From Rhizobium sp. Q54 (GTDB lineage Bacteria > Pseudomonadota > Alphaproteobacteria > CADEGL01), in NCBI GenBank assembly GCA_945860095.1, contig CAMAPP010000001.1, forward strand, positions 3,741 through 67,740: a DNA stretch of 64,000 bases. Reading direction: 5' to 3'. Shown here piece after piece: positions 21,452-42,131 of this stretch. The notes below the pieces were generated by a model that worked only from the letters and a program-made list of their open reading frames with translations, made no database searches and was not told where the DNA came from. The translations under genes and the position numbers were made by a program. How positions within the stretch are numbered: position 1 is the stretch's first letter; each line of letters starts with the position of its first letter.

Positions 21452-21473
21452 CATAGGCCTGAATTCTCCTCAT

Positions 21474-26728: not shown

Positions 26729-28566
26729 TCGGCTTGTTCGGCATCTTTCGCGCCGATCCGCGCCTGCCCGCGAATCTTTCTCCGCTCGCGGCCACCTTGC
26801 CCGAGGGTTACGCGATCGGCTGTCACGACCGGCCGGGCGCGGCACTCGGCCGCGTGGCCCACCATCACGATTTTGCGGACGGTTACGCCGAAAGCGCCGA
26901 TGGCCGATTCGCCGCCACCGCGATCGGCGAGGTGTTCGATGCGGCGCAAGCCGGCATGACGGGATCGCTTGCGGCCTTCGCCGCGCGCCTGGTCGCGAAC
27001 AACCACCTGGAGCGCCTAGCGGAACTGAACGGCCTGTTCGCGATCGCGATTCACGACCGCGTCGCGCACCGCCTGATTCTCGCGACCGACCGGCACGCGA
27101 GCTTTCCCATCCATGTTTGGCGCGCAGGCAATGAACTGGTCTATGCCGGTCAAATCAAGACTTTGCTCGGCGACCCAAGGATTGCGCGCAAGGTTGACCC
27201 GCGCGCGCTCGCGCAATTGTTCACAACCCAACGCACCTTCGGGCGCACGACCCCTATCGCGGGCGTCGAAGCCTTGCCCGCCGCATGCCTGTTCGAGTTC
27301 GACGCGACGGGCGGGCGCGAGCGGCGCTATTGGGCGCTCGATTGGCGCCGCCCGGATTTCGACGAGCAAACCGGAGCGCGCCTTTTGGCCGAGGCCTTGC
27401 GCAAGGCCGTCGCGCGCCAGAGCGCCGCACCAAATACGGCTTTGCTGCTGTCGGGGGGCATCGACAGCCGGCTTGTCCTCGCCGCGGCGCCGCGAGGCGC
27501 GCTCGAATGTTGGACCACGGCCGGTTATGCCGGAAATCCGGAACTCGCCGTGGCGCGCGAAATCGCCGCCTTGTTCGGCGCCAAACACCACGCGCTGATC
27601 GTGGCACCCGAAGACACCTTGCCCGGGCTTGAGCGCACGGTCGTCGATTCGAATGGGCTATATCCCGCCTCGACGCCGATGTCGGCCTTCCTGCCCCAGG
27701 TCGGCGTCCATTGTCCTGCGATCCTGACCGGGCACGGACTCGATTACACCTTGCGCGGCTATTATCTGCCCGCGCGCTTCGCCGAGATCGCGGGATCGCG
27801 CACGCGCCTGCCCATTCTCCGGCCCATCCCGCGCCATCCGACCGGCGCGGACGTCCTGCGCTCGCTGCGCCAAGGCCCGCCACGCGCCACCATCGCGCGC
27901 ATCGTGGCGCCCGCTTGGCGGGCGGAATGGTGGCACAGCCAGGAGACGGCGCTCGATGGAACCCTGCGACCGTGGCTGCAATCCGCCGAGCCCTACAATG
28001 CCTGGGACGCCTTCATCCTGCATGCCGTATCCAAGCACTACGCCTTCACCGGCATGATGGCGACGCGCGCGGTCGGCAATCTACGCCTGCCCGCCTTCGA
28101 TGCCGAGGTATTCGACATTTATTTGCGCATGAAGCCCGCCTGGCGGTGCAGCGGCGCCATGGTCAAGCGCGCGCTCGGCGAGCTATCGCCCGAAGCCGCG
28201 CGGCTCGCACAGGCCAATACCGGATTTCGTGCCGGACTTGGGCCTTGGCGCGAGATTGGCGCGCTCATGGCGCGCGCGGGTTTGCGCCGCCTGGGCCTTG
28301 CCTCCCGGCCCGAACCGCCGACCGAATACCATTCGACGGGGTCGTGGCAGGACATTCCCAATCTGTACCGCTTGGAGCCGGGCCATCGGCGGCGCTTCGG
28401 CGAGATTCGCGCGCGCTTGGATGCGCTGACGCTCGGCGTTCTCGACGCCGATGGTTTGCGGTCGTGCATCGACGAACATCTCGACGGCCGCGCCAAGCAC
28501 ACCAAGCTTCTGCGCCAGCTGCTGACCCACGACGCCTTCGTGCGCGAATTCGGGGCAACCGCGTGA
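26725..28566 (+). CDS. Asparagine synthase (AsnB)-like amidotransferase lacking the N-terminal Cys nucleophile
   Basis: The N-terminus is MIGLFGIF instead of MCGI. The PP-loop LLSGGIDSR and the overall AsnB domain order are conserved. Confidence 0.7.
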   Translation: MIGLFGIFRADPRLPANLSPLAATLPEGYAIGCHDRPGAALGRVAHHHDFADGYAESADGRFAATAIGEVFDAAQAGMTGSLAAFAARLVANNHLERLAELNGLFAIAIHDRVAHRLILATDRHASFPIHVWRAGNELVYAGQIKTLLGDPRIARKVDPRALAQLFTTQRTFGRTTPIAGVEALPAACLFEFDATGGRERRYWALDWRRPDFDEQTGARLLAEALRKAVARQSAAPNTALLLSGGIDSRLVLAAAPRGALECWTTAGYAGNPELAVAREIAALFGAKHHALIVAPEDTLPGLERTVVDSNGLYPASTPMSAFLPQVGVHCPAILTGHGLDYTLRGYYLPARFAEIAGSRTRLPILRPIPRHPTGADVLRSLRQGPPRATIARIVAPAWRAEWWHSQETALDGTLRPWLQSAEPYNAWDAFILHAVSKHYAFTGMMATRAVGNLRLPAFDAEVFDIYLRMKPAWRCSGAMVKRALGELSPEAARLAQANTGFRAGLGPWREIGALMARAGLRRLGLASRPEPPTEYHSTGSWQDIPNLYRLEPGHRRRFGEIRARLDALTLGVLDADGLRSCIDEHLDGRAKHTKLLRQLLTHDAFVREFGATA

Positions 28567-29864
28567 GCGCTCTCGCCTTTCGCTTGTCCATCGCGCCCGC
28601 GCTCGAGAAATTCCGTCCCGAGATCGTCCATGCCTGCGATTTTCTCGCGCGCTGCCATGGGCTTATCCGGGACGAGACGGCCCCGCGCATCCTGCACTAC
28701 GGCCCCGCGCCACCAGAGGGGGCGGTGCATGTCCCGGCGGCGCTGTTTCCCTCGGGCGCGCGGCTCGACGGCGAGGGCATCCATCCCGTCGCGTCGGCGC
28801 TCGACGACATGTTGGCGGGAAAGCGCGAAACGGCGCTTTTCCCGAAGACAACAGGGCGCCTCGATTACGATGCGCTGGGATTGATTTTTCTGCTCCTGTC
28901 GCGCATCGAGGAACGCGGCCACCAAGCGCGCGACCGCTACGGCCGGTTCCCCTACGCCGCGTCCTTGGCGGTGCGCAAAACCGGCAAGGCGGCAAATCTG
29001 GCCGACGATGCGGCGCGCGATATCGCCGCCGCGCTGTACGGCACCGACACCCCGCCCATCGCCACGTGCCACCAAATTCTCGTGACCCACGATGTCGATC
29101 GGCTCAAGGGTTATCACCGCGCTCACGAACCCTTGCGCCACGCGCTCGGCGATCTTGCGAAGCGGGGCGCGCCGGGCAAGGCATGGCACCGCCTCGTGGA
29201 CGGGTATTTTTCGCGCGAGCCGTGGCGGTCGGCGCGCGCCCTGATGGCGGCGTCCGAGGCGCGCGGCCTTGCGAGTCGGTTTTATTTCATGGGTCCGAGC
29301 GCCCACCCCATGGACAGTCCCTATACCGCCAGAATGCCGAAGCTTCTGGGCGTGCTGGGGCGCGAGATCGCGGGGCGCGGCCATGTCGTCGGCTTCCACC
29401 CCGGTTTCGAAACCGCGAGCGATCCCGCGCTATGGCAAGCGCAGCGCGCGGGGCTTGAGAACGCACTCGGATTTCGGGTCACGGAAGGCCGCCAGCACGT
29501 TCTGCGTTATATCGCCGAGGACACGCCCGATATCTGGAACGACGCGGGCATGGCGCTCGACGCCACGCTTGCCTGGCCCGATGCGAGCGGGTTTCGCAGC
29601 GGCACCTGCCGACGCCATGCCGCCTATAGCTTGCGCCGGCGGCGCACCCTCGCGCTCGATCAGGTCTCGACCGCGATCATGGATTTCAGCTTCTTCGGCG
29701 GGAAGTATCGCGCCATGGCGATCGACGACGCGCTCGACGAAGCGAGAAAGGTCGCGAAGATCTGCAAGCATCACGGCGGCGCATTGGTCATCCTTCAACA
29801 TACCGGCCAGAACCGTCCGCCCCAGAGCGCGTTCTTCGAGCGCCTATTGGATTTGGCTTCATGA
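28563..29864 (+). CDS. Hypothetical protein, polysaccharide deacetylase-like domain
   Basis: ILVTHDVDRL and RFYFMG blocks are paralogous to those of the next gene. The GTG start overlaps the upstream stop. Track entry 27711 is over-extended. Confidence 0.45.
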   Translation: MSALAFRLSIAPALEKFRPEIVHACDFLARCHGLIRDETAPRILHYGPAPPEGAVHVPAALFPSGARLDGEGIHPVASALDDMLAGKRETALFPKTTGRLDYDALGLIFLLLSRIEERGHQARDRYGRFPYAASLAVRKTGKAANLADDAARDIAAALYGTDTPPIATCHQILVTHDVDRLKGYHRAHEPLRHALGDLAKRGAPGKAWHRLVDGYFSREPWRSARALMAASEARGLASRFYFMGPSAHPMDSPYTARMPKLLGVLGREIAGRGHVVGFHPGFETASDPALWQAQRAGLENALGFRVTEGRQHVLRYIAEDTPDIWNDAGMALDATLAWPDASGFRSGTCRRHAAYSLRRRRTLALDQVSTAIMDFSFFGGKYRAMAIDDALDEARKVAKICKHHGGALVILQHTGQNRPPQSAFFERLLDLAS

Positions 29865-30586
29865 GCGCGGATTTCTCTTTCTCTTCCTATCGCGCGCTTC
29901 TTCAGGCGTTCGCGGATCGGGACTACAAGGCAATGTCCTATGCCGACGCCGATCCGGCCCGGCGCCATCTCATCCTGCGCCACGACATCGACATCTCGCT
30001 CGGAGCCGCGCTGCCGATCGCGGAGATCGAGCGCGAAGCCGGCATGGCCGCCACGTATTTTGTCATGACGCGCAGCGAAATCTACAACCCCTTCGCGCCC
30101 GACGGCGCGCGCGCGCTGGCGCACATCGTGGATCTGGGCCACCGCATCGGCCTGCACTTCGACGCGGCGTTATACGGCCCGGGGCAACAACTCGACGACG
30201 CGGCGGCGCGGGAATGCGCGGTCCTCGGGAAAATCGTGGGCCAAGACGTGCACGTCATCAGCTTTCACCGCCCCGCCCCGGCCCTGATCGGGCGCGCGGG
30301 CACGATCGCCGGACGGCGCCACGCCTACGAGCCGCGCTTTTTTGCCGAAATGGGCTATTGCTCGGATTCGCGCGGCGGTTGGCATCGGGGCGCGCCGCTG
30401 AATCACCCGGCGGTGCGCGCCGGCACGGCGCTCCAATTGCTGACCCATCCGATCTGGTGGCTCGACCCGGCGGCGGAACCCGCCGCGCGCTTGGACCGCT
30501 TTCTCGACACGAAGTTCGCGGCGCTCGACCGGGAATTGGCGGAACATTGTGAGGTCCATGTGGCGGGACGGAGAGTGGTTCGATGA
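29861..30586 (+). CDS. Polysaccharide deacetylase-like protein
   Basis: Contains LILRHDIDISL ... ATYFVMTRSEIYNPF ... GLHFD. It overlaps the upstream stop (ATGA). Confidence 0.45.
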   Translation: MSADFSFSSYRALLQAFADRDYKAMSYADADPARRHLILRHDIDISLGAALPIAEIEREAGMAATYFVMTRSEIYNPFAPDGARALAHIVDLGHRIGLHFDAALYGPGQQLDDAAARECAVLGKIVGQDVHVISFHRPAPALIGRAGTIAGRRHAYEPRFFAEMGYCSDSRGGWHRGAPLNHPAVRAGTALQLLTHPIWWLDPAAEPAARLDRFLDTKFAALDRELAEHCEVHVAGRRVVR

Positions 30587-31572
30587 GTCGCGTGGGCGTT
30601 GTCGGCCTCGGCCATTGGGGGCCCAATCTTGCGCGAAACTTCCATCTTCTGGGCGCGCTCGGCGCGGTGTGCGACACCCGCGAGGAATCGCGAACGGCCG
30701 TTCTTAAAACTCTTCCGGGCGTGGCGGGGCACGCGGATTTTTCCGCCATGCTGGCCTCGCCGACCATCGACGCGGTCGCGATCGCGACGCCGGCGGCAAC
30801 CCACGGCGCGCTCGCGGCCCGCGCGCTGGAAGCGGGCAAGCACGTCTTCGTCGAGAAGCCCTTGTGTCTCGACTTGGCGCAGGCGCGCGCGCTCGGCGAG
30901 GACGCGGCGCGGCGCGGTCTGGTTCTTATGGTCGGACATCTGCTCCTTTATCACCCGGCCTTCAATGCGCTCGAGCGCCTGGTCGCCGACGGCAAGCTCG
31001 GGGAATTACGCTACGCCTATTCGAACCGGCTGAGCTTGGGCAAAATTCGGCGCGAGGAGAACGCCCTGTGGTCGTTCGCGCCGCATGACATCTCGATGAT
31101 CCTGGCGCTGGTGGGTCGGGTTCCCGTGCGCGCCATGACGAGCGGCGGCAGCTATCTGTTGCCGGGCATCGCCGACACCACACTTTCGCATCTCGATTTC
31201 GGCCAAGGCGTGCAAGGCCATGTCTTTGTGTCGTGGCTTCACCCGTACAAGGATCATCGTTTGGTGATCGTCGGCAGCAAGGGCATGGCCAGTTTCCACG
31301 ACAGCCAGACGGGGGCGGAAAAACTCATGTTCTATCCCCACGGCGTCGGCTGGAATGAAGATCTGCCCACGGTCGCAAAGGCCACGGCGGAGCCCGTGCC
31401 CTACGAGGCCGACGAGCCCTTGAAGCGCGAATGCCGCCATTTTCTCGATTGCGTCGCCGGACGCGCAAGGCCACGTTCGGATGCTGCGGAGAGCCTGCGC
31501 GTTCTTGCCGTGCTCGATTCCTGCCAACGCTCCCTGACGCTGGGCAGCCCCGTGGAGATCGCGGCGCCATGA
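30583..31572 (+). CDS. Gfo/Idh/MocA oxidoreductase, WbpB/GnnA-like sugar 3-dehydrogenase
   Basis: [15 protein letters not shown] and EKP are present. It is followed by acetyltransferase and aminotransferase genes, as in diacetamido-sugar modules. Confidence 0.75.
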
Positions 31573-32141
31573 GCGATTATTACATTCACCCGAGCGCGAT
31601 CGTGGACGACGGAGTCCACATCGGCGCCGGCACGAAAATCTGGCATTTCGCCCATATCCTGCGCGGCGTGCGGCTCGGCGAGCGCTGCGTCGTCGGCCAG
31701 AACGTGATGATCGGGCCGAACGTCGCGATCGGCCAAGGGGTCAAGATTCAGAACAATGTCTCGATCTACGAAGGCGTCGTGCTCGAGGATGACGTGTTCT
31801 GCGGCCCCTCCTGCGTGTTCACCAATGTTCTGACGCCGCGCGCCTTCATCGAGCGGAAATCGGAATTCGCGCCCACTCGCGTGCGCCGGGGTGCTTCCAT
31901 CGGCGCCAACGCCACCATCGTTTGCGGCGTGACCGTCGGGCGCTATGCCATGGTGGGCGCGGGCGCGGTCGTGACCCACGACGTCCGCGATCACGAACTC
32001 GTTCACGGCAATCCCGCGCGCCCGCGCGGCTGGGTGAGCCGTACGGGCGAGGTTCTTGGCGCTAACCTCGTGTGCCCGCGGACGGGCGAGCGTTATCGCC
32101 GCGAATCGGACGGCCTCGTCGCCGTCGAGGAGAAGACATGA
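31569..32141 (+). CDS. Hexapeptide N-acetyltransferase, WbpD-like
   Basis: Left-handed beta-helix repeats run through most of the 190 aa. The ATG overlaps the upstream stop. Confidence 0.8.
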
Positions 32142-33289
32142 GCCGCACCGTCCCCGTCACCGATTCCATCCCGTTCATGGATTTGAAGGCGCAGTACGCG
32201 CGCCTCAAACCCGAAATCGATGCCGCCATTGCGCGTGTTCTGGCCCACGGCCAGTTCATCCTGGGGCCCGAGGTCAAGGAATTGGAGAGCAAGCTCGCCG
32301 AACGCGCGGGCGCCGCGCATTGCATCGGCGTGGCAAACGGCACGGACGCACTGACCATCGCGCTCATGGCCGAGGGCGTGGGGTCGGGGGATGCGGTCTT
32401 TGTGCCGTCCTTCACGTTCACGGCGACGGCGGAGGCGGTGTTGATCCTCGGCGCGGCGCCGGTGTTTTGCGATGTCGATCCGAAGACGTGCAATCTCGAT
32501 CCGGTGGATCTAGCGCGCCGCATCGAGGCGGTGCGCGCCGCGGGCAGGTTGCGCCCGCGCGCGATCATCGCCGTCGATCTGTTCGGCTTTCCGGCGGATT
32601 ACGCCGCGCTGGAGGCGCTGGCCGGCAAGCACGCATTGTTCGTGCTGGCCGATGCCGCGCAGAGCTTCGGCGCGCGCAGCGGCAATAAGCGCGCGGGCGC
32701 GCTAGCCCCCGTCACGACGACGAGCTTCTTTCCAGCAAAGCCGCTCGGCTGCTACGGCGATGGCGGCGCCTTGCTGACCGACGACCCGGCGCGCGCGGCG
32801 TTGTATCGTTCGATGCGCGCCCACGGCACGGGCGGCGCCAAGTACGACATCGTGCGATTGGGCTTCAACAGCCGGCTGGATACCTTGCAGGCCGCGATCC
32901 TGCTCGCGAAGCTGCCCGCACTCGACGGCGAAATCGCCGCGCGCGCGCGCTTGGCCGATCGGTACGATCGCCTGCTCGCCGGCGCGGTCGAAACCCCGCC
33001 CCGTCAACCCGACACGGCGAGCGCCTGGGCGCAGTACACGATCCAAACCAAGCGGCGCGATCACGTAGCCGCGACGCTGAAGGCCCAGGGCATTCCGACC
33101 GCGATCTATTACCCCAAGCCCATGCATCTGCAACCTGCCTACGAGAGTTACGGCGAGGGGCCGGGATCGCTCGCCATATCCGAAGCGCTTGCATGCCGGG
33201 TGTTGAGCCTGCCCTTCCATGCCGATATGGACGAAGCGACGGCGCTGCGCGTCGCCGGCGCCGTCAGGGCCGCCGTGGCAGATGGCTGA
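32138..33289 (+). CDS. DegT/DnrJ/EryC1/StrS aminotransferase, WbpE-like
   Basis: Canonical [13 protein letters not shown] and PSFTF motifs are present. Confidence 0.85.
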
Positions 33290-34415
33290 ACTGCGGACGC
33301 TCGACGCGCTCAGCATCGCGAGCCGGGCTGATTCGTTCGTCGCCATCGCGGCCGACATCCCCGGCGAGTATTGGACCAAGGAACATTTCCTGGTCGAGCG
33401 GCCGGGGAAATGGCGCCTGTCCTTCGCGGCCTGGGACGGCGATACGCCCATTGCCTATGCGGTGCTATCGCAACCCGACGCCGGGCGCGTCCATCTTCAT
33501 CATTTCATGGTCGCGCGAGCGCATCGCGCCAGGGGGCTGGGGCGGCGCATGCTCGCGGAAATGCTGGCGCGCGCCCGCGCTTCGGGCGCCGCGCGCTTGA
33601 CTCTCAAGGTGCTATCGGGCAATGAGCGGGCCATCGCCTTTTACCGCGCGAACGGATTTAACCCCGTCGGCCGGGAAGGCGAATACGCGGTGCTGGAGCG
33701 CGCGCTCGGCGCAGCGGTCGCGCGCGCCGCCGTCGCCATCCACCAGCCGAATTACCTGCCTTGGCTCGGCTATTTTTGGAAGATGGCCCAGGCCGACATC
33801 TTCGTCTTTCTCGACAATGTCCAATTCACCAAGGGCGGATACACCAACCGGATGCAGATCGATGCCGGCGGCGTTGCGCGCTGGCTGAGCGTGCCAGTAA
33901 TGGTGCGCCTCGGCATGCGCATCGATCAGATCCGCCCCAGCAGGCCGGATTGGCGCGCCGCCCATCTCGACACGCTCGCGACCTATTACGCAAAGGCGCC
34001 GGCGTACCGCGAGGTGCGCGACTGGCTGGCCGAGGAATACGAACGCGCGCCCGCCACGGATTTGGCGGCGATCAATCGAAGCCTCGTCGAAGCGATCGCC
34101 GCGTCGCTTGGCCTCAAGACCCGCTTCGTCGCCTCGTCCGAAATTCCGACCGGCGACGCGGACGGCGATATGCGTCTTGTGCGCATCGTCGAACACTTGG
34201 CGCCCGGCGGGGTCTATCTGTCGGGCAAGGGCGGCGACAATTATCAGAACGCCGAGCGCTTCGTCGAAGCGGGGCTTGAGTTGCGCCACACCGACTATCC
34301 GATGCCGCGTTACGATCAGGGCAGGCATGATTTTCTCGGCGGGCTATCGGTGATCGATGCCGCTTTCCGTCTCGGCTGGGCGGGTGTGGCCGAATTGCTG
34401 CGCGTTTCCGCGTGA
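33282..34415 (+). CDS. GNAT acetyltransferase domain fused to a WbqC-family domain
   Basis: GNAT core (ARAHRARGLGRRMLAEM ... AFYRANGF) followed by AIHQPNYLPWLGYFWKMAQADIFVFLDNVQF (WbqC signature). Confidence 0.65.
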   Translation: MAELRTLDALSIASRADSFVAIAADIPGEYWTKEHFLVERPGKWRLSFAAWDGDTPIAYAVLSQPDAGRVHLHHFMVARAHRARGLGRRMLAEMLARARASGAARLTLKVLSGNERAIAFYRANGFNPVGREGEYAVLERALGAAVARAAVAIHQPNYLPWLGYFWKMAQADIFVFLDNVQFTKGGYTNRMQIDAGGVARWLSVPVMVRLGMRIDQIRPSRPDWRAAHLDTLATYYAKAPAYREVRDWLAEEYERAPATDLAAINRSLVEAIAASLGLKTRFVASSEIPTGDADGDMRLVRIVEHLAPGGVYLSGKGGDNYQNAERFVEAGLELRHTDYPMPRYDQGRHDFLGGLSVIDAAFRLGWAGVAELLRVSA

Positions 34416-35644
34416 GCACGGTGTTGCGCGTGCTGTGTCTCGATATCGAGGGCGGCTTCGGCGGCTCCTCGCGCAGCCTGTTCGAGTCGATCCGGCACAT
34501 GGACCGTTCGGCCGTATCGGTCGAGATTTGGTGCCGGCGCGACGGCCCGGTCGTGCCGCGTTACCGCGCCCTCGGTGTCGCCTGCCGTGTCGTGCCGGCC
34601 ATGGCGCATTACAGCGCCCTGCCGCGATTCTCGCGCAATCTCGTCGCGCTTGCCGGCTTCGTTCGGCGGTTTGCAGCATCGCGCGCATTTCGTCGCGAGC
34701 TCGCAGCCGAAACGAATGCGCGCTTCGACCGCGTGCATTTCAATCACGAGGCGCTGTTCCTTCTCGCGCGTTGGCTTCGCCCCCGGACGCGCGCGCCCTT
34801 CATCGCCCATGTGCGGACCAATCTCCTGCCCGGCCCCTTCGCCCGTTGGCAGGCGCGAACCCTGGCGCGCGCGACGGACGCCCTGGCGTTCATCACGCGC
34901 AACGAGGTGGCGACGTTCCGCGCCCATGGCGGCAGGCCGCGCCTGGCTCGCATCATTCACAATATCGCCACCGCGCCCGATGCCGGTGCGGCCGGGCAGG
35001 CCGGAAAATCGGACGCCGGAAAATCGGACGCCGGGAAATCGGACGATTGGGAAAATGACGCACGGCTGCGTATCGCGTGTCTTAGCAATTATTCCTACGC
35101 GCGCGGCCTCGACCGGTTGCTCGATATCGCCGAGGAATTGCGTGCCCAAGGCCAGGCCGATGCCCTGTTCGTCGTCGCAGGGCGCATGGCGCTGACGCGC
35201 TCGCTGCCGGGGCTCTTGGGCGAGATCGGACGGCGCGGCGGCACGTTGGCGGATGCGGCCGAGGCGCGGGGGTTAGGCGGTTATTTTCGCTTCCTCGGTC
35301 ACGTCGAGAATCCCGATCGCGTCCTGGCCCAGTGCGCCGCGTTGATCAAGCCCACGCGCGAAGCCAATCCCTGGGGCCGCGATGTAATCGAGGCCTTGGC
35401 GGCGGGCCGCGCCGTGCTTTCATGCGGCACCGATGCGACCTTCGTGGAAAGTGGCGTCACGGGTTATTTGCAGGATGAATTTGACGCAGCCGCCATGGCC
35501 CGCGAGGTCGCGCGTCTTGCCGGCGACCGCGAAGCCCTGCGGCGCATGGGCGAGACGGGCAGGGCGCGGGTGGCACGGTTGTGCGATGGCCCGTCCCGCG
35601 CGCGGGACTTGCTTGATCTTTGGCGCGAGGCGGTCCGGCCATGA
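34412..35644 (+). CDS. Glycosyltransferase family 4
   Basis: GT-B fold with a C-terminal E-x7-E-like region. It carries an internal AGKSD x3 repeat insertion. Confidence 0.75.
   Translation: MSTVLRVLCLDIEGGFGGSSRSLFESIRHMDRSAVSVEIWCRRDGPVVPRYRALGVACRVVPAMAHYSALPRFSRNLVALAGFVRRFAASRAFRRELAAETNARFDRVHFNHEALFLLARWLRPRTRAPFIAHVRTNLLPGPFARWQARTLARATDALAFITRNEVATFRAHGGRPRLARIIHNIATAPDAGAAGQAGKSDAGKSDAGKSDDWENDARLRIACLSNYSYARGLDRLLDIAEELRAQGQADALFVVAGRMALTRSLPGLLGEIGRRGGTLADAAEARGLGGYFRFLGHVENPDRVLAQCAALIKPTREANPWGRDVIEALAAGRAVLSCGTDATFVESGVTGYLQDEFDAAAMAREVARLAGDREALRRMGETGRARVARLCDGPSRARDLLDLWREAVRP
35000..35044 (+). repeat. 15-bp x3 in-frame tandem repeat (GCCGGAAAATCGGAC) inside the GT4 gene
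   Basis: Direct reading gives gccggaaaatcggac gccggaaaatcggac gccgggaaatcggac, encoding AGKSDAGKSDAGKSD. Confidence 0.8.
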
Positions 35645-37080
35645 CGCGCGCCATTCGGTTATTGGGCGATTTGCCGCCGCGTGCGGTTCTGGCCGTATTT
35701 CTTGGCGCCCTGGTGGTGCGCCTCGCCAATGCCTACGGCCTTGCCGGCAATGCGGCGAATTTCTTTCGCGAGGACGCCGTGCTGTATTGGTCGGCGGCGC
35801 AATTCGTGCTCGACCACGGCGGCTTCGATCCGCCGCCCGAGGGGGCCGGTGCATCCGGGCGCGAACGCGTGCCGCTGTACATCCTGTTCGTCGCGGGAAT
35901 GCGCGCGCTATTTGGCGATTCCCCTATCGCGGTCGTTCTCGCCCAATGCGCGATCGATGCCGGGAGCTGCGTCCTGATCATGCGTCTGGGCGCCTTTCTC
36001 GGCCCGCGTATCGGCGTTCTCTCGGGCGCGCTGGCCGCGATTTGGTCCAATCTCGTCGTCCATTCGGCGGCCTTGTTGTCGGATACATTGTTCGTGTTCG
36101 TCTTTTGCCTCGCCCTTCTCGGCGGCGCGCGCTATCTCGAAGACGCGCGGCCCGCGCGCGCCCTCGTGGCCGGACTGTTGTGCGGCGCGGCGATCATGGT
36201 GCGCACGGTCGCACAATTCCTGCCGCTCGCCATGGCCGCCGCCGCGCCTGTCGTGGCTCTCGTCGCACGGCGCGGGCTGCGAAGCGGCTTGGCCGCCTCC
36301 GTCCTCGCCCTCGTCGGCGCGGCGCTGACGATTTCACCCTGGGTATATGCGAATTTGCGCGATCACGGTGTCGTGGCCTTGACCACCCAAGAGGGCGTGC
36401 ACCTTGCGGCCTGGATTTTACCGCTGGTGCGCCAATCGGTGGATGGCACGCCCCACGCAGAGGGCGCCAAGCTCTACCGCGACCGCTATGTCGAGGAATT
36501 GCGCGCCGAGGGGCTTGATCCCGAGCGCATGGCGCCGTTCGAGCTTTCGCGCCGTTTAAGCGGCAAGGCCATGGCCGATTTGACCGCCATGCCCACCTCG
36601 GCCGTGGCTTTGGCCTGGGCAAAAGGCGCCGCGATCAATCTCGCGGCGCCCGGCATTGCACTCGATCCGCGCATCCGGCGCGCACGCGAAGGCAGTCTTT
36701 ACAACGACACGAAAGCCAGCCTGTTCGGCCGCCTCGGCGGCTATTTCGCCAGCACCTCGCCCGCATTGCGCCCCCTGATCGTTCTCGGCGCGGTCTTAAG
36801 CGCGCTGACCCTTGTGCTGCAAGTCGTGGGTTTCGCGCGCTTGGTTCGCCACCGGCCTTGGGCGGGCGCCGCGGTCTTCGGACTTATTCTCTATGTACTG
36901 CTCGTGACGGGACCCATCTATTCGCCCAAATATCGCCTGCCGCTGGAGCCCATCCTGATCGTCTTGACGGCCCTCGGCGCGAGCGGACTGCGCCGCCGCC
37001 CGCATGAGCTTGCCCTGCCCCCTCCAAGCACCTATGTAGGTCGCGCCGCAGCGCGACCGGAACAAGCCCCCCGCACATGA
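35641..37080 (+). CDS. Polytopic membrane glycosyltransferase, ArnT/PMT-like (GT39/GT83-type)
   Basis: At least ten predicted TM segments; the N-terminal region resembles undecaprenyl-phosphate-sugar-dependent transferases. Confidence 0.55.
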   Translation: MTRAIRLLGDLPPRAVLAVFLGALVVRLANAYGLAGNAANFFREDAVLYWSAAQFVLDHGGFDPPPEGAGASGRERVPLYILFVAGMRALFGDSPIAVVLAQCAIDAGSCVLIMRLGAFLGPRIGVLSGALAAIWSNLVVHSAALLSDTLFVFVFCLALLGGARYLEDARPARALVAGLLCGAAIMVRTVAQFLPLAMAAAAPVVALVARRGLRSGLAASVLALVGAALTISPWVYANLRDHGVVALTTQEGVHLAAWILPLVRQSVDGTPHAEGAKLYRDRYVEELRAEGLDPERMAPFELSRRLSGKAMADLTAMPTSAVALAWAKGAAINLAAPGIALDPRIRRAREGSLYNDTKASLFGRLGGYFASTSPALRPLIVLGAVLSALTLVLQVVGFARLVRHRPWAGAAVFGLILYVLLVTGPIYSPKYRLPLEPILIVLTALGASGLRRRPHELALPPPSTYVGRAAARPEQAPRT

Positions 37081-38033
37081 TCGGAATCGCAGAAATCGCC
37101 AGCTATATCCCGGCGGACCGGGAGTCGAATCTCGACAAGCTGGATAAATTCGGCATCAATCTCGCGTTCATCGACGACAAAATCGGCGTTCACGAAGTGT
37201 CGCGCCGCGCGCCGGGCGAGGGCACGACCGAGTTGTGCCTGGCGGCCTATGCCAAGTTGCGCGCCAAGCACGACTTCGATCCGGTGAGCGTGGATTGCAT
37301 CGCGGTGTGCACACAGAACCCGGATGGACACGGCCTGCCGCACGTCTCGGCGGTGCTGCACGGCAGGCTTGGTCTTGGGCGGCGTTGCGCCAGCTTCGAT
37401 ATCGGCCTCGGCTGTTCGGGCTTCGTTTACAGCCTATCGATCGTCAAGTCCTTCATGGAGGCGCACGGCTTTCGTCGCGGCCTGTTGTTCACGGCCGATC
37501 CTTATTCCAAGATCGTCGATCCCGACGACAAGAACACGGCGCTGCTGTTCGGCGACGGCGCGACGGCCAGCCTTCTAGAACACGCCGATGCCGCGCACCC
37601 CATCCTTGTGCCCGTGCGCTTCGAGGTCGACACCAATGGCGCGTTGTCGAACGCCTTGTGCATCGTCGACGGCAAGCTGCGAATGAACGGCCGCCGAGTG
37701 TTCGAGTATTCGGCGACGGCCGTGCCGGAATCGGTGCGGAGCTTGATGGCCGCGGCAAATCTGTCGGTCGGAGATATCGACGCCTTTCTGTTTCACCAGG
37801 GCAGCAAATACATCGTCGACGCGCTGATCAAGCGCCTGGATTTGCCGCCCGAGAAGGTGCCGAACAATTTGCGCGACCAGGGCAATACCGTGTCGTCGAC
37901 CATTCCGCTTCTGCTCGAGCCGATGGTGCACGATCCGCGCGTTCGGCGCGTCCTGGCCTGCGGCTTCGGCGTCGGCCTTTCGACCGCCACCTGTGTGCTC
38001 GAGCGCCTGCCCGCTTCGGGTCCTAGAACCTAG
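37077..38033 (+). CDS. 3-oxoacyl-ACP synthase III (FabH/KAS III)-like protein
   Basis: The Cys-containing block FDIGLGCSGFVYSL is present, and the length matches KAS III. Confidence 0.8.
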   Translation: MIGIAEIASYIPADRESNLDKLDKFGINLAFIDDKIGVHEVSRRAPGEGTTELCLAAYAKLRAKHDFDPVSVDCIAVCTQNPDGHGLPHVSAVLHGRLGLGRRCASFDIGLGCSGFVYSLSIVKSFMEAHGFRRGLLFTADPYSKIVDPDDKNTALLFGDGATASLLEHADAAHPILVPVRFEVDTNGALSNALCIVDGKLRMNGRRVFEYSATAVPESVRSLMAAANLSVGDIDAFLFHQGSKYIVDALIKRLDLPPEKVPNNLRDQGNTVSSTIPLLLEPMVHDPRVRRVLACGFGVGLSTATCVLERLPASGPRT

Positions 38034-38063: not shown

Positions 38064-39140
38064 GTGCATCGCATCGTTTTCGTATTGCCGTCTTTCGCCG
38101 GCGGCGGCGCCGAACGGGTCATGCTGACCCTCGCGGGCGCCCTCGATGCCGCGCGTTTTGCGCCGTGCCTGATCGTTCTCGACGGGCGGGGACCGCTCGC
38201 CGCCCTCGTGCCGCGTGGCATGGCAGTGCGCGATCTCGGGCGCGCGCGCCTGCGGTCGGCGGTGGGGCCGCTTCTTGGCGCCGTGCGCGCGGAGAAACCC
38301 GATATCGTCGTCGCCACGCTCGGCTATCTCAATCTCGCGATCCTTGCCTTGCGTCCGGCCTTCCCAGGGCGGCCGCGAATATTCGTCCGCGAAGCCAATA
38401 TGCCGGAGCGGAGCGTGGCGGCGTTCGCCCTGCCGGCGCTGGGGCGCCTTGCCTACCGGATGCTCTATCCGCGCGCGGACGGCGTGCTGTGCAATGCGCG
38501 CGCGGTGGCCGATGCCTTGGAGCGCGGCTTCTTCGTGCCGCGCCGGCTCATCCACCTTCTCGACAATCCGATCGACGAGGATGGGCTGCGCGGCCACGCC
38601 GCGCCGGCCGTGCGCGTTCCCGGCCCCGGCGCGCGCTTCGTCGCCGCCGGAAGGCTGACGCATCAAAAGGGTTTCGACCGTCTGATCGATGTCATGGCCA
38701 CGATGCCCGAGGAATGCCATTTGACCATCTTGGGCGATGGTCCCGAACGCGGCGCGCTCGAAGCGCAAATCGCGCGCCTGAATCTGGCGTCGCGCGTGCG
38801 CCTCGCCGGGTTCGTATCGGAGCCTTGGGCGCATTTTGCGGGGGCCGACGCTTTTCTCTTGCCGTCGCGCTGGGAAGGGATGGCAAATGCGGCGCTGGAA
38901 GCCTTGGCCTGCGGCACGCGGGTGATCGCGGCTCCGGAGGCGGGCGGCATCGCGGAAATCTTCGTCGCCGATGGCATCGCATCGTCGGCCACGATCGTCG
39001 TGCCATGGGGCGCGGAGTTCGCGGCCGCCATGCGCGCGGTCGCGCCGGAGCCGTGCACGACGCCGCGCGCGAGTCTCTTGCCGGCGAGGTTTTCTCTCGG
39101 CCAGGTCGTTCGCCGATTCGAGTCCGTGTTGGATGGCTGA
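38064..39140 (+). CDS. Glycosyltransferase family 4
   Basis: GT-B architecture with an N-terminus FVLPSFAGGGAERV. Confidence 0.75.
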   Translation: MHRIVFVLPSFAGGGAERVMLTLAGALDAARFAPCLIVLDGRGPLAALVPRGMAVRDLGRARLRSAVGPLLGAVRAEKPDIVVATLGYLNLAILALRPAFPGRPRIFVREANMPERSVAAFALPALGRLAYRMLYPRADGVLCNARAVADALERGFFVPRRLIHLLDNPIDEDGLRGHAAPAVRVPGPGARFVAAGRLTHQKGFDRLIDVMATMPEECHLTILGDGPERGALEAQIARLNLASRVRLAGFVSEPWAHFAGADAFLLPSRWEGMANAALEALACGTRVIAAPEAGGIAEIFVADGIASSATIVVPWGAEFAAAMRAVAPEPCTTPRASLLPARFSLGQVVRRFESVLDG

Positions 39141-40233
39141 CGCGCTTCGCGTTCTGCATGTCATCACGGGGCTCGGCTCCGGCGGCGCCGAGGGGCAACT
39201 GAGCGCGCTTTTGATCCAGGCGCCAAGGGCGGACATGGCGGTGCGCGTGATCGGCCTGTTGGCGGGCGGCGAACACGCGGCACGGCTGGCGGCGGCGGGC
39301 ATCGCCGTCGGCGATCTCGGCATGAAGCGCGGCATGCCCGATCCCTTCGCGGTGCCGCGTCTTGCGCGCGCGATCCGCGACTACCGGCCGGATGTCGTGC
39401 AAAGCTGGATGTACCACGCCGATCTCCTGTCCCTGGCGGCGCTAGCGCTGATCGCACGCCGCGACCGGCCGCGTCTGGTTTGGGGCGTGCGCTGCTCGGA
39501 CATGGACGTCTCGCGTTACGGCCGCACGTTGCGCTGGACCATCGCCCTATGCGCGCGTCTTGCCGCGCGGCCGGACGCGGTCGTGGTGAATTCCCGTGCC
39601 GGACAAAAAGTGCATGAGGCTCTCGGCTACCGGCCGCGTCGCTTCGCGTTCATTCCAAACGGCATCGACACGGTGCGGTTCCAGCCCAATGAGCGCGCGC
39701 GGCTGGAGATACGGCGCATGCTCGGCTTCGGCGAGAACGATATCCTGGTCATGCACGTGGCGCGCCGCGATCCGATGAAGGATCACGAGAGCTTTCTCGC
39801 AAGCCTTGACGCCGTGCCGGGCGTCACCGGAATCGCGATCGGCCTTGGCACCGAATCCCTGCCGGACAAGCCCAATCTGCGTCGGCTTGGCGCCAGAGAC
39901 GATGTCGCGCGTTTGCTGGCGGCGGGCGATCTGTTCGTTTCGAGTTCCGCCTTCGGCGAAGGATTTTCCAACGCGGTCGCCGAGGCGATGGCGACGGGCC
40001 TTCCCGCCATCGCGACCGATGTGGGCGATGCGCGCGCGATACTCGGCGATACGGGCATCGTCGTGCCCGCGCGCGACCGCGAGGCGCTTACCCAGGCCAT
40101 CGGCCGCTTCGCCGCCTTGCCGCACGCCGAGCGCCGAGCGCTTGGCCTGGCGGCGCGCCGGCGCATCGCGGACGAATTCCCGCTTGCCCGCGCCGCCGAG
40201 CGCTTCGCCGCGCTTTACCGGGAGATCGTCTAG
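39133..40233 (+). CDS. Glycosyltransferase family 4
   Basis: N-terminus VLHVITGLGSGGAEGQL with a GT4 C-terminal domain. The start overlaps the upstream stop. Confidence 0.75.
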   Translation: MADALRVLHVITGLGSGGAEGQLSALLIQAPRADMAVRVIGLLAGGEHAARLAAAGIAVGDLGMKRGMPDPFAVPRLARAIRDYRPDVVQSWMYHADLLSLAALALIARRDRPRLVWGVRCSDMDVSRYGRTLRWTIALCARLAARPDAVVVNSRAGQKVHEALGYRPRRFAFIPNGIDTVRFQPNERARLEIRRMLGFGENDILVMHVARRDPMKDHESFLASLDAVPGVTGIAIGLGTESLPDKPNLRRLGARDDVARLLAAGDLFVSSSAFGEGFSNAVAEAMATGLPAIATDVGDARAILGDTGIVVPARDREALTQAIGRFAALPHAERRALGLAARRRIADEFPLARAAERFAALYREIV

Positions 40234-40235
40234 CG

Positions 40236-42131
40236 ATGTGCGGGATCGCGGGAATCGTCAATCTCGACGGGCTGGGCCCCGAGATCACGGCCGCGCGCAT
40301 GGACCGCGCACTCGACTGGATGCGTCTGCGCGGCCCCGATGGCCGCGCGCGCTGGTCGGACGCGCGTTGCGCGCTCGGCCATACGCGCCTCGCGGTCATC
40401 GACCTGTCCGCCGCCGCCGCCCAACCCATGGTCCGCGACGGCCTGGTCGCGACCTTCAACGGCGAGATCTACAATTTTCGCGAGGTACGGGCGGACTTGG
40501 AACGCCTTGGCCATCGCTTTACCACCCAATCGGACACCGAAGTCCTTTTGGTCGGATGGCGCGCTTGGGGCGTCGCGCTATTGCCCAGGCTGGTCGGCAT
40601 GTTCGCGCTCGCGCTATGGGACGCGCGCGAAGGTGCGCTGTTTCTTGCGCGCGACCGCTTCGGCAAGAAACCTTTGCTCTATGCTCAGGATGGCCGGAGC
40701 CTGACCTTCGGTTCGGATTTGCGCGCGTTGGAAGCGCTCGAGGGCACGCAGCGCGAGGTCGATCCGGGTGCGCTACGCCTGCTGTTCGCGCTCCGCTACA
40801 TTCCCGATCCATTCTCTATCGCGCACGGCGTGCACCGCTTGCCCGCCGGACACTGGGCGCGGTTCGACGCCCGAGGATTGTCGATCGCCCGCTGGTATGA
40901 CCCCATGGCCGCTCGCCCGCCGCGCTACGCCGACGAGGACGAGGCCGCGCGGGATCTGGCCCTACGCTTCGATGAGGCCATCGCCGCGCGCACGGTCGCG
41001 GACGTGCCGATCGGCGCCTTCCTTTCCGGCGGCATCGATTCGGCGATCGTCACCGCATCCTTGGCGCGCCAAACCGCCCGCGTGCGCACTTTTACCGTCG
41101 GCTTTCCCGGCGCCTCGGCATATTACGAGGAACGCCCGGCCGCACGCGCCGTGGCCCGGCACCTGGGCACCGATCACACCGAAATCGAGATCACCGCGCG
41201 CGAGGCGCAGGACGCGCTCGAAGGCGTATTCGACGGCCTCGACGAGCCGTTCGCCGACAGCTCGGCCTTACCGACCTATCTTTTGAGCCGCGCCACGCGC
41301 CGCCACGTGACCGTCGCATTGTCGGGCGACGGCGCGGACGAGGTCTTCGGCGGCTACCGGAAATATCAGGGCGAATTGCTGGCCGAAACCTATCGCCGCA
41401 TCCCGTCTTGGTTGCGCACGTTCGCCCTGGAGCCGCTCCTTGGAACCTTACCCGAAGCCAAGGACAGTGCGTTGCTCGAAACTTTCCGCCGCGCGCGCCG
41501 TTTCGCCGCCCACGCCGGCAAGGTGCCCGCGGACCGGCAGGCGGGCTGGTCGCGCCTTCTTGCCGAGGACGAACTCGACGCCGTGTTGGTCGAACGCGGC
41601 ACCGCGCCGACGATCGAGGCCCTGTTCTCCGGCGCGCGCGCGCACGCGCCATCGGACGACCCGATCAACACCATGCTGGCCGCCGAGATGGCGATCGGCC
41701 TTGTCGGCGACATGCTGGTCAAGGTCGACCGCATGAGCATGGCCAATAGCCTCGAGGTGCGTTGCCCCTTTCTCGACCAACGCGTGGTCGAATGCGCTTT
41801 TGCCATGCCGGGCGGATTCAAGCTGCGCCGAGGCCAGGGCAAGCGCGTGCTGCGTCGCGCCTTCGCGGACCGCTTGCCGGCCGAAGTATTCGATCTGCCG
41901 AAGAAGGGCTTCGAGATGCCCATCGCGGACTGGCTGCGCGGCGAATTGGCGCCGTTGGCGCGCGCGGCGATCGATCCCGCACATCTTAGGCGCCAAGGCT
42001 TGTTCGATCCCGACCTGCCCGCGCGCTGGTTTGCGGATCTCGCGGCCGGACGGCGCGATACGTCGTGGCAATTGTGGACCATGATCGCGTTCCAGCAATG
42101 GTACGCCCGACGCGGACAGCCGGCACCATGA
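40236..42131 (+). CDS. asnB: Asparagine synthase (glutamine-hydrolysing), WbpS-like amidotransferase
   Basis: N-terminal MCGIAG nucleophile and the PP-loop FLSGGIDSA are present; about 630 aa. Confidence 0.85.
   Translation: MCGIAGIVNLDGLGPEITAARMDRALDWMRLRGPDGRARWSDARCALGHTRLAVIDLSAAAAQPMVRDGLVATFNGEIYNFREVRADLERLGHRFTTQSDTEVLLVGWRAWGVALLPRLVGMFALALWDAREGALFLARDRFGKKPLLYAQDGRSLTFGSDLRALEALEGTQREVDPGALRLLFALRYIPDPFSIAHGVHRLPAGHWARFDARGLSIARWYDPMAARPPRYADEDEAARDLALRFDEAIAARTVADVPIGAFLSGGIDSAIVTASLARQTARVRTFTVGFPGASAYYEERPAARAVARHLGTDHTEIEITAREAQDALEGVFDGLDEPFADSSALPTYLLSRATRRHVTVALSGDGADEVFGGYRKYQGELLAETYRRIPSWLRTFALEPLLGTLPEAKDSALLETFRRARRFAAHAGKVPADRQAGWSRLLAEDELDAVLVERGTAPTIEALFSGARAHAPSDDPINTMLAAEMAIGLVGDMLVKVDRMSMANSLEVRCPFLDQRVVECAFAMPGGFKLRRGQGKRVLRRAFADRLPAEVFDLPKKGFEMPIADWLRGELAPLARAAIDPAHLRRQGLFDPDLPARWFADLAAGRRDTSWQLWTMIAFQQWYARRGQPAP

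What the first reader, a model, noticed from the sequence alone, without database searches (positions are those of the whole stretch)
37077..38033. FabH-like KAS III enzyme in the glycosyltransferase block
A complete KAS III homologue sits between the ArnT-like glycosyltransferase and a GT4, coupled to both (ATGA overlap at 37077). No ACP gene is visible. FabH-fold enzymes also serve as acyltransferases, so it may make or transfer a short acyl group (for example 3-hydroxybutanoyl, a known N-acyl group of Leg and Pse derivatives) onto an amino sugar.
Basis: inference. Interest (0 to 1): 0.5.

Follow-up and report, generated by a model that had tools for sequence, protein, structure and literature searches.

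The report
Stand-alone glycan-locus KAS III enzyme
The gene is a real FabH-type condensing enzyme from a little-studied subfamily that normally sits with its own carrier protein and acyltransferase in sugar-modification cassettes, so it most likely supplies a short acyl group for an amino sugar of this surface polysaccharide; here it has lost those partner genes.

Summary
ORF 37077..38033 (+) encodes a complete 318-aa KAS III. Its start overlaps the stop of the upstream GT-C gene (ATGA). A GT4 gene starts 30 nt downstream. The 64-kb window has no ACP gene.

It is not a housekeeping FabH. It scores below both NCBIfam FabH cut-offs and lies in a ~44-kb translationally coupled glycan operon.

I compared 81 loci. 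In 52 the subfamily gene is followed by a dedicated ACP. In 48 it is preceded by an unannotated ~195-aa protein (predicted double hot-dog fold). About 34-49 loci have an LpxD/LpxA-like acyltransferase, and 44 have a sugar aminotransferase. These cassettes sit in pseudaminic-acid or dTDP-aminosugar loci.

The window gene and its syntenic orthologues lack all these partners. They keep Cys-His-Asn, show no group-specific substitutions, and are under purifying selection (dN/dS 0.03-0.34).

Best reading: a condensing enzyme that makes a short 3-oxoacyl thioester for sugar N-acylation, using a carrier encoded elsewhere. The acyl group, the carrier and the acceptor sugar are not determined. It is a new member of a known kind.

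The parts
37077..38033 (+). KAS III (FabH-fold) gene, 318 aa. Catalytic residues Cys113, His240, Asn270. CoA-site equivalents Phe31, Lys35, Lys152.
   Evidence: AF2 model has pLDDT 90.2, and Foldseek gives TM 0.87 to 3gwa and to E. coli FabH. dN/dS is 0.03-0.34 against orthologues.
37077..37080 (+). ATGA start/stop overlap between the GT-C gene and the KAS III gene (translational coupling).
35641..37080 (+). PMT_2 / ArnT-like GT-C glycosyltransferase, immediately upstream.
   Evidence: Pfam PF13231, 2.1e-10. Gene call from the identical public contig (offset +31775). Also upstream of the orthologue in L002/L003, but absent in L004/L005.
38064..39140 (+). GT4 glycosyltransferase immediately downstream. 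This is the gene most consistently kept next to the stand-alone KAS III.
   Evidence: Pfam. Best NCBIfam hit is PglJ-like, far below cut-off. A GT4 follows the orthologue in L001-L005 and L011-L012.
39133..40233 (+). Second GT4 glycosyltransferase.
40236..42131 (+). AsnB-like glutamine amidotransferase (candidate for uronamide or amidine formation).
   Evidence: Pfam Asn_synthase, 2.7e-101.
30583..31572 (+). GFO/IDH/MocA sugar 3-dehydrogenase (WbpB/WlbA-type step).
   Evidence: Best NCBIfam hit is UDP-GlcNAc 3-dehydrogenase, below cut-off.
31569..32141 (+). WlbB/WbpD-type LbH N-acetyltransferase. One candidate user of an acyl donor.
   Evidence: PDB 3mqg, 6.9e-67. Start taken from the ATGA overlap.
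32138..33289 (+). WbpE-type nucleotide-sugar 3-aminotransferase (DegT family).
   Evidence: PDB WbpE, 1e-101. Pfam.
33282..34415 (+). GNAT-WbqC fusion protein. Candidate N-acyl/aminoacyl modification enzyme. WbqC is present in every syntenic locus of the stand-alone subclade.
   Evidence: Pfam WbqC 2.4e-54 and Acetyltransf_1 3.7e-18..
15045..23117 (+). Nonulosonic-acid (Leg/Pse-type) block: NeuC-like, FabG/PtmA-like SDR, double GNAT, NeuC-like, NeuB, NeuD/PglD-like LbH, GFO, CMP-transferase. An alternative acceptor pathway for the acyl group.

Best explanation
The gene encodes a working KAS III condensing enzyme of a glycan-locus subfamily. Shown: the fold, the Cys-His-Asn triad, purifying selection, operon membership, and family-wide linkage to amino-sugar genes. 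Inferred: the enzyme loads an acyl-CoA primer onto Cys113. It then decarboxylatively condenses the primer with a malonyl thioester to give a short 3-oxoacyl thioester, which a ketoreductase may reduce to a 3-hydroxyacyl form. One of the locus's acyltransferases then puts this acyl group on the amino group of a nucleotide sugar. The candidates are the WlbB-like LbH, the NeuD/PglD-like LbH and the GNATs. The acceptor would be the 2,3-diamino sugar or the Leg/Pse-type nonulosonate precursor. The lineage has lost the dedicated ACP, the double hot-dog partner and the LpxD-like transferase. The carrier is therefore most likely an ACP encoded elsewhere, such as the housekeeping AcpP carrying malonyl-ACP. 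The alphaproteobacterial stand-alone KAS III BioZ works with ACP in this way.
For: The protein has the KAS III domains and triad, invariant across 18 relatives. The AF2 model matches solved FabH structures at TM 0.87. Both NCBIfam FabH models score below cut-off: 197.7 versus 249 and 160.3 versus 292.1. The gene sits in a run of genes with 4-8-nt overlaps that make 2,3-diamino sugar, nonulosonate and GT functions. Among 81 loci, an ACP is present in 52 (immediately downstream of the KAS III gene in most), the ~195-aa partner lies upstream in 48, an LpxD/LpxA-like LbH is present in 34-49, and DegT in 44. Pse genes appear in about 12 loci and RmlA/B in about 7. Annotated examples are the Francisella orientalis O-antigen locus and a Pontibrevibacter plasmid with FdtA-DegT. 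The window clade branches next to an ACP-linked clade in a neighbour-joining tree, with no position conserved differently between the two groups. dN/dS is 0.03-0.34. Published precedent for the idea: the F. psychrophilum wfpC/E (KAS), wfpD (ACP), wfpF (KR) and wfpG (acyltransferase) genes, predicted to make and transfer 3,5-dihydroxyhexanoyl onto Qui2NAc4N (PMC6519341). BioZ appears among the PDB hits as '3-oxopimeloyl-[ACP] synthase'.
Against: The window has no ACP, no ketoreductase clearly assigned to this step, no double hot-dog partner and no LpxD-like transferase. The same is true of the syntenic relatives. If the enzyme used acetyl-CoA with housekeeping malonyl-ACP it would simply duplicate FabH, so either the primer or the carrier must differ, and neither is known. 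The WlbB-like LbH is a close homologue of an acetyl-CoA-dependent enzyme. The E. coli ACP-docking Arg249 is Tyr here, although that is also true of the ACP-linked relatives. There is no biochemical evidence for any member of the subfamily.
Confidence: 0.4

Rival explanations
1. CoA-only route. The enzyme condenses acetyl-CoA with malonyl-CoA to acetoacetyl-CoA, as the KAS III-family enzyme NphT7 does. An SDR reduces the product to 3-hydroxybutanoyl-CoA, and a GNAT transfers it to the amino sugar. No ACP is needed.
For: The window and its syntenic relatives have no ACP. The residues equivalent to the E. coli FabH CoA site are conserved: Phe31, Lys35, Lys152. The locus has GNATs at 17005..18558 and 33282..34415, and a FabG-like SDR at 16241..17080 directly upstream of one of them. 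From my own knowledge, GNAT sugar N-acyltransferases that use 3-hydroxybutanoyl-CoA are known (FdhC). The 3-hydroxybutanoyltransferase work is cited in PMC3726653.
Against: No residue distinguishes the stand-alone group from the ACP-linked group. The SDR sits in a standard Leg/Ptm-type block and gives only generic SDR hits. Bacteria usually obtain 3-hydroxybutanoyl-CoA from central metabolism, and the Acinetobacter modules for these sugars include no FabH.
Confidence: 0.2
2. Direct acyltransferase. The enzyme forms the acyl-Cys113 intermediate from an acyl-CoA and passes the acyl group straight to a sugar amine or hydroxyl, as KAS III-like acyltransferases of natural-product pathways do. It would take the place of a PseH/WbpD-type enzyme.
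For: The gene stands alone inside the GT block. In the related locus L008/L029 it lies between PseF and PseG-PseI, and no N-acetyltransferase family is recorded within about 10 kb. In L028 and L030 it lies between PseB and PseC without partner genes.
Against: His240 and Asn270, needed for decarboxylative condensation, are invariant. From my own knowledge, the known KAS III-like acyltransferases (CerJ, DpsC) have altered triads. The stand-alone group has no specific substitutions. Most relatives carry a separate LbH N-acyltransferase. PseH could be encoded elsewhere in those genomes.
Confidence: 0.13
3. It is a fatty-acid or lipid A initiation enzyme (a housekeeping or second FabH) that merely lies inside the glycan locus.
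For: Best matches in NCBIfam and PDB are FabH proteins. Some 43-50% identical relatives (SAR324, some Lentisphaerae) lie next to ABC transporter, tsaD, ribD, ribosomal or heptosyltransferase genes rather than sugar-modification genes.
Against: The protein scores below both curated FabH cut-offs. It is only 24-26% identical to E. coli FabH (Foldseek alignments) but 46-59% identical to cassette members. It is translationally coupled inside a glycan operon, and the synteny holds in four other loci. No plsX, fabD, fabG or acpP lies nearby.
Confidence: 0.07
4. It is an inactive remnant of a decayed cassette.
For: The ACP, the double hot-dog partner and the LbH have all been lost in this clade.
Against: The ORF is intact. 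All 60+ family-invariant residues are kept. dN/dS is 0.03-0.34 over dS up to 1.7. The stand-alone state is conserved in at least five loci.
Confidence: 0.04

Closest known systems
FabH / KAS III (E. coli FabH; nearest solved structure is B. pseudomallei KAS III, 3gwa/3gwe)
   Same: Same two Pfam domains, same fold (TM 0.87), same Cys-His-Asn triad, and CoA-site equivalents are present.
   Different: It scores below the NCBIfam FabH cut-offs and is 24-34% identical to solved FabH proteins (Foldseek alignments). Arg249 is replaced by Tyr and Phe87 by Leu. The genomic context is a glycan operon, not plsX-fab.
Predicted FAS-like R-group module of the Flavobacterium psychrophilum O-polysaccharide locus (wfpC/wfpE KAS, wfpD ACP, wfpF KR, wfpG PglD-like acyltransferase; PMC6519341)
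   Same: A ketoacyl synthase inside an O-antigen locus, proposed to build an N-acyl group for an amino sugar.
   Different: That module has its own ACP, KR and acyltransferase next to the synthases, and its product (3,5-dihydroxyhexanoyl) is known from NMR. The window gene has none of these partners and its product is unknown. I did not test sequence relatedness to wfpC/wfpE.
Canonical glycan KAS III cassette found here (LpxD/LpxA-like LbH, ~195-aa double hot-dog protein, KAS III, ACP, usually with DegT), e.g. the Francisella orientalis O-antigen locus
   Same: Same KAS III subfamily: 46% identity to the F. orientalis protein and 55-59% to the nearest cassette members. No diagnostic residue differences were found.
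   Different: The window copy lacks the ACP, the hot-dog partner and the LpxD-like LbH. In the literature I could search, the cassette itself is only annotated as 'hypothetical' plus 'ketoacyl-ACP synthase III'.
BioZ (alphaproteobacterial 3-oxopimeloyl-ACP synthase)
   Same: A stand-alone specialised KAS III (Foldseek TM 0.87), named in the PDB as an ACP-dependent synthase.
   Different: Only 22% identity (Foldseek alignment), a biotin-synthesis context and a glutaryl-CoA primer. It is an analogy, not membership.
KAS III-like acyltransferases of natural-product pathways (CerJ, DpsC, ChlB6; named from my own knowledge)
   Same: FabH fold, acting without chain extension.
   Different: From my recollection, those enzymes have altered catalytic residues. 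The window protein keeps Cys-His-Asn. I made no sequence comparison with them.

Membership tests
KAS III (FabH-fold initiation condensing enzymes) | ACP_syn_III (PF08545) plus ACP_syn_III_C (PF08541) domains | tested here: met
   72.0 and 75.3 bits, both above the gathering cut-offs.
KAS III (FabH-fold initiation condensing enzymes) | Cys-His-Asn catalytic triad | tested here: met
   C113, H240 and N270 are invariant in 18 relatives.
KAS III (FabH-fold initiation condensing enzymes) | Thiolase-type fold matching solved FabH structures | tested here: met
   AF2 pLDDT 90.2. Foldseek top 30 are all KAS III, TM 0.85-0.88.
KAS III (FabH-fold initiation condensing enzymes) | Decarboxylative condensation of acyl-CoA with malonyl-ACP | not testable with these tools
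   Needs an enzyme assay.
Housekeeping FabH (NCBIfam TIGR00747 / NF006829) | Score at or above the curated family cut-off | tested here: not met
   160.3 versus 292.1, and 197.7 versus 249.
Housekeeping FabH (NCBIfam TIGR00747 / NF006829) | Location in a plsX/fab gene cluster | tested here: not met
   All neighbours are glycan-synthesis genes. No fab, plsX or acpP gene is in the 64 kb.
Housekeeping FabH (NCBIfam TIGR00747 / NF006829) | It is the only fabH in the genome | not testable with these tools
   Only this window and short public contigs of the MAG were reachable.
Glycan-locus KAS III cassette (LbH, hot-dog, KAS III, ACP) | Sequence groups with cassette KAS III proteins | tested here: met
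   46-59% identity. The window clade branches next to the ACP-linked clade L013-L020.
Glycan-locus KAS III cassette (LbH, hot-dog, KAS III, ACP) | Dedicated ACP gene adjacent | tested here: not met
   Present in 52 of 81 loci, absent from the window and its syntenic relatives.
Glycan-locus KAS III cassette (LbH, hot-dog, KAS III, ACP) | ~195-aa double hot-dog partner adjacent | tested here: not met
   Present in 48 of 81 loci. The HMM finds nothing in the window.
Glycan-locus KAS III cassette (LbH, hot-dog, KAS III, ACP) | LpxD/LpxA-like ~310-aa LbH acyltransferase adjacent | tested here: not met
   The window's LbH proteins are of WlbB type (3mqg, 7e-67), NeuD/PglD type and Vat/phn type, and lie 5-25 kb away.
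Glycan-locus KAS III cassette (LbH, hot-dog, KAS III, ACP) | Lies in a glycan locus with a DegT sugar aminotransferase | tested here: met
   A WbpE-type DegT lies 3.8 kb upstream in the same operon.
KAS III-like acyltransferases (CerJ/DpsC type) | Altered catalytic residues, with loss of the condensation His/Asn pair (as I recall the literature) | tested here: not met
   His240 and Asn270 are invariant. The criterion itself rests on my own knowledge and was not checked in a paper here.

The most novel reading that the evidence does not exclude
The stand-alone KAS III may act without any ACP as the amide-forming N-acyltransferase itself. It would pass an acyl group from its Cys113 thioester directly to the amino group of a nucleotide sugar. 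That would explain why it alone occupies the PseH-like position between PseF and PseG in L008/L029, and sits between PseB and PseC in L028 and L030. This would be a new reaction type for a FabH with a full Cys-His-Asn triad.
Probability: 0.12. Interest if true: 0.7.

Novelty: new member of a known kind. Interest (0 to 1): 0.4.

Why it matters
N-acyl groups on amino sugars and nonulosonic acids are major determinants of serotype and of phage and antibody recognition. How the non-acetyl groups are made is known for only a few cases. This gene belongs to a widespread KAS III subfamily, found across many phyla and in the fish pathogen Francisella orientalis. The subfamily appears dedicated to building such acyl groups, yet none of the papers I could search reports a biochemical study of any member. 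Knowing its product would let acyl decorations be predicted from sequence. For this window the practical point is modest: the glycan probably carries a non-acetyl short acyl substituent. How a KAS III does this without its usual carrier and partner genes remains an open but narrow question.

Tried and rejected
1. ACP hunt. I searched the six-frame translation of the window with the cassette-ACP HMM, including --max and E up to 50, and with a motif regex. Nothing was found. The same search on L001-L005 and L008 also found nothing.

2. Partner genes. HMMs for the ~195-aa partner and for the LbH237 type found nothing in the window. The LbH312 HMM hit only the WlbB-, PglD- and Vat-type LbH genes.

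3. Residues distinguishing the groups. I looked for positions that differ between 21 stand-alone and 48 ACP-linked proteins. None met the criteria (at least 80% and 70% conserved, and different), so there is no sign of neofunctionalisation.

4. Literature. Ten searches covered FabH or KAS III together with O-antigen, 3-hydroxybutanoyl, nonulosonate, flagellin glycosylation, WbqC and Francisella. They returned only the predicted F. psychrophilum module and general remarks on FAS-like genes in flagellin glycosylation islands. The sfm genes of Shewanella include no KAS III, so my recollection was wrong. The Francisella 'victoria' LPS paper is not held.

5. Plasmid collection. I hoped for a Sinorhizobium rkp-3 link to 3-hydroxybutyryl-Pse. 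No such hit appeared, only Pontibrevibacter (49%) and P. veronii (43.5%).

6. The SDR at 16241..17080 as a dedicated 3-oxoacyl reductase. It gave only generic SDR/FabG-level hits and sits in a Leg/Ptm-type block, so it was not assigned.

7. The ORF 29269..30552 (427 aa) was rejected as a shadow ORF. The real genes there are 28563..29864 and 29861..30586, by synteny with L002 and by their 4-nt overlaps.
Full report
**The observation**

The ORF at 37077..38033 (+) is real. It has 318 codons, an ATG start and a TAG stop. GC3 is 0.80 in a window of 64% GC. Its start overlaps the stop of the upstream gene as ATGA.

The upstream gene (35641..37080) is a PMT_2/ArnT-like GT-C glycosyltransferase. The downstream gene is a GT4. 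The GT4 most probably starts at GTG 38064, 30 nt after the KAS III stop, because that start keeps the typical GT4 N-terminus. So the gene is overlapped on one side and closely followed on the other.

An identical protein and a 99%-identical locus occur in two alphaproteobacterial MAG assemblies.

**What the protein is**

- Pfam finds both KAS III domains.
- The best solved relatives are all KAS III enzymes. The top one is the B. pseudomallei structural-genomics protein 3gwa, at 1.9e-45.
- An AlphaFold model built on an 18-sequence alignment has pLDDT 90.2. It superposes on 3gwa, E. coli, S. aureus and B. subtilis FabH, and on BioZ, at TM about 0.87.
- Cys113, His240 and Asn270 are invariant in the family. 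They align with E. coli Cys112, His244 and Asn274.
- The equivalents of the E. coli CoA-site residues Trp32, Arg36 and Arg151 are Phe31, Lys35 and Lys152, and they are conserved.

**It is not a housekeeping FabH**

- It falls well below both curated NCBIfam cut-offs: 197.7 versus 249, and 160.3 versus 292.1.
- Foldseek alignments give 24-34% identity to solved FabH proteins.
- It sits inside a long, translationally coupled glycan operon rather than next to plsX or fab genes.

**The surroundings**

The glycan locus runs from about 4.5 kb to 48.5 kb. It contains:

- a CBS-nucleotidyltransferase, an ABC exporter and a radical-SAM/SPASM protein;
- a Leg/Pse-type nonulosonate block: two NeuC-like genes, an SDR, a double GNAT, NeuB, a NeuD/PglD-like LbH, a GFO oxidoreductase and a CMP-transferase;
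- an FkbM methyltransferase and two AsnB-like amidotransferases;
- a 2,3-diamino-sugar trio: a GFO dehydrogenase, a WlbB-type acetyltransferase (3mqg, 7e-67) and a WbpE-type aminotransferase (1e-101);
- a GNAT-WbqC fusion, several GT4 genes, the GT-C gene, a Wzy_C protein and a WbpM-like dehydratase.

purH follows the locus. Most junctions between 28.5 and 40.2 kb are 4-8-nt overlaps. The window holds no ACP.

**The family and its usual company**

The protein database holds thousands of relatives. The top 120 are 53-100% identical and about 310 aa long. A scan of species-representative genomes returned 80 loci at 43-99% identity. They come from Proteobacteria, Verrucomicrobiota, Lentisphaerota, Bacteroidota, Cyanobacteria, Nitrospirota, Campylobacterota and other groups.

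I clustered all ORFs of these loci and then searched them with HMMs built from the clusters. Among 81 loci including the window:

| Partner gene | Position | Loci |
|---|---|---|
| ACP, about 80 aa | anywhere in the locus by HMM; immediately downstream in most | 52 |
| Unannotated ~195-aa protein | immediately upstream | 48 |
| LbH acyltransferase, about 310 aa | nearby | 34 by clustering, 49 by HMM |
| DegT sugar aminotransferase | nearby | 44 |

The best curated matches of the ~310-aa LbH are LpxD and LpxA, which are acyl-ACP-dependent. The cassettes lie in pseudaminic-acid loci (PseB, PseC, PseG, NeuB; about 12 loci) or in dTDP-sugar loci (RmlA, RmlB; about 7 loci).

Two annotated examples show the arrangement:

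- The Francisella orientalis O-antigen locus reads RmlACDB, LbH, ~195-aa protein, KAS III (46% identical to the window protein), ACP.
- A Pontibrevibacter plasmid reads ACP, LbH, ~195-aa protein, KAS III, FdtA/QdtA, DegT.

The family picture is therefore a small type-II-FAS-like module that builds an acyl group on a private ACP and hands it to an amino sugar. The same idea was proposed, from annotation plus an NMR structure, for the 3,5-dihydroxyhexanoyl group of the F. psychrophilum O-polysaccharide (PMC6519341). FAS-like genes have also been noted, without assigned function, in enterobacterial and Aeromonas flagellin glycosylation islands.

**What is different in the window**

The window gene and its syntenic relatives have none of the cassette partners. 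These relatives are:

- L011 (99% identical) and L012 (70%);
- L002/L003 (74%);
- L004/L005 and an 803-kb contig (62%);
- the non-syntenic L008/L029 (57%).

In the syntenic loci the constant neighbours are the two downstream GT4 genes, a WbqC-domain protein 1.5-3.9 kb upstream, and the 2,3-diamino-sugar genes (where the contig reaches that far). The GT-C gene is present in only some of these loci.

In a neighbour-joining tree this clade branches beside the ACP-linked clade L013-L020, so the stand-alone state looks derived (midpoint-rooted, no support values). Comparing 21 stand-alone with 48 ACP-linked proteins, no position is conserved differently between the groups. The E. coli ACP-docking Arg249 is Tyr in both groups, while Lys252 and Arg253 (E. 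coli Lys256 and Lys257) are kept. dN/dS against orthologues is 0.03, 0.13, 0.22 and 0.34. The enzyme is therefore maintained as the same kind of catalyst.

Other stand-alone clades exist. Some sit next to PseB and PseC (L028, L030). Others (SAR324, L032) sit in contexts with no link to sugar modification and may be housekeeping enzymes in those lineages.

**Most likely mechanism**

Shown: the fold, the triad, purifying selection, operon membership and the family-wide linkage to amino-sugar modification.

Inferred: the enzyme acylates Cys113 from an acyl-CoA and condenses it with a malonyl thioester to give a short 3-oxoacyl thioester. This may be reduced. One of the locus's acyltransferases then attaches it to an amino sugar.

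With no private ACP, the carrier is most simply an ACP encoded elsewhere. BioZ, another stand-alone alphaproteobacterial KAS III, is listed in the PDB as a 3-oxopimeloyl-ACP synthase.

One weakness is that acetyl-CoA plus housekeeping malonyl-ACP would merely duplicate FabH. The primer or the carrier must therefore differ, and neither can be read from the sequence.

The closest rival is a CoA-only route giving acetoacetyl- and then 3-hydroxybutanoyl-CoA for a GNAT. Direct acyl transfer by the KAS III itself is a further rival. The stand-alone position supports it, including the PseH-like slot in L008/L029. The untouched His-Asn pair and the lack of any group-specific change argue against it.

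The factual description is right. 'Makes a short acyl group for an amino sugar' is now backed by comparative genomics. 'Transfers' is less likely. '3-Hydroxybutanoyl on Leg/Pse' remains one candidate among several. The Pse-linked cassettes make it reasonable. However, the Acinetobacter modules for 3-hydroxybutanoyl Leg, Pse and QuiNAc4N contain no FabH or ACP. I recall that the F. 'victoria' O-chain contains 3-aminobutyric acid and alanine (Kay et al. 2006), but I could not check this because the paper is not held.

**Verdict**

This is a genuine accessory KAS III of an uncharacterised, glycan-dedicated subfamily, present here in a reduced stand-alone form. It is a new member of a known kind, since FAS-like acyl-group modules in glycan loci have already been proposed. 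Interest is moderate.

The more interesting by-products lie outside the window: the widespread four-gene cassette and its double hot-dog partner.

Noticed in passing
[not shown]
   Followed up: partly
window 33282-34415 (+); L091:13804-16284 (-) and L091:17899-20562 (+): The window encodes a GNAT-WbqC fusion directly after the WbpE-type aminotransferase. F. orientalis has two DegT-WbqC-PglD-like LbH triads. The second is followed by a 74-aa ACP-like ORF ('...PAWDSLTHMDL...') and an SDR. WbqC (PF08889, function unknown) may therefore belong to amino-sugar N-acyl or aminoacyl modification. It occurs in every syntenic locus of the stand-alone KAS III subclade.
   Followed up: partly
window 26725-28566 (+) and 40236-42131 (+): One glycan locus holds two AsnB-like glutamine amidotransferases, one canonical (Asn_synthase 2.7e-101) and one divergent (1.1e-18). 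They are candidates for uronamide or acetamidino formation.
   Followed up: no
window 10887-11864 (+): A radical-SAM/SPASM protein lies inside the glycan locus, next to a GFO oxidoreductase (9806-10858) and a Vat/phn-type LbH (12183-12893). This is unusual for polysaccharide clusters.
   Followed up: no
window 15045-19732 (+): Two NeuC-type hydrolysing 2-epimerase paralogues (421 and 446 bits to TIGR03568) flank a FabG/PtmA-like SDR and a 517-aa protein with two GNAT-like regions. This suggests either two nonulosonate branches or an unusual N-acyl step.
   Followed up: no
window 28563-29864, 29861-30586, 23114-24694, 24854-25720, 12998-14077 (all +): Five ORFs in the operon have no family assignment. 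The first is homologous to proteins with a weak DUF7033 hit. The 241-aa ORF is conserved directly upstream of the GFO dehydrogenase in L002 and in the contig carrying P0014.
   Followed up: no
window 46525-56343; L003; the 803-kb contig: The glycan locus ends at a WbpM-like gene and is followed by purH, an MFS/Atg22-like transporter and a large NAD-glutamate dehydrogenase. The same flank appears in two related alphaproteobacterial contigs whose glycan gene content differs. This suggests a conserved chromosomal site for a variable glycan locus.
   Followed up: partly
L040, L042, L044, L046, L048, L062, L084 (SAR324 and relatives); L032: KAS III proteins 43-50% identical to the window protein lie next to nucleoside hydrolase and ABC transporter genes, tsaD and ribD, or next to ribosomal protein genes and a heptosyltransferase. 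In some lineages this subfamily may serve as the housekeeping FabH.
   Followed up: partly
window 37575-39335 (-) and 29269-30552 (+): Long ORFs (586 aa and 427 aa) overlap well-supported genes on the other strand or in another frame. In this GC-rich sequence they are most likely shadow ORFs. The second was rejected by synteny; the first was not tested further.
   Followed up: partly
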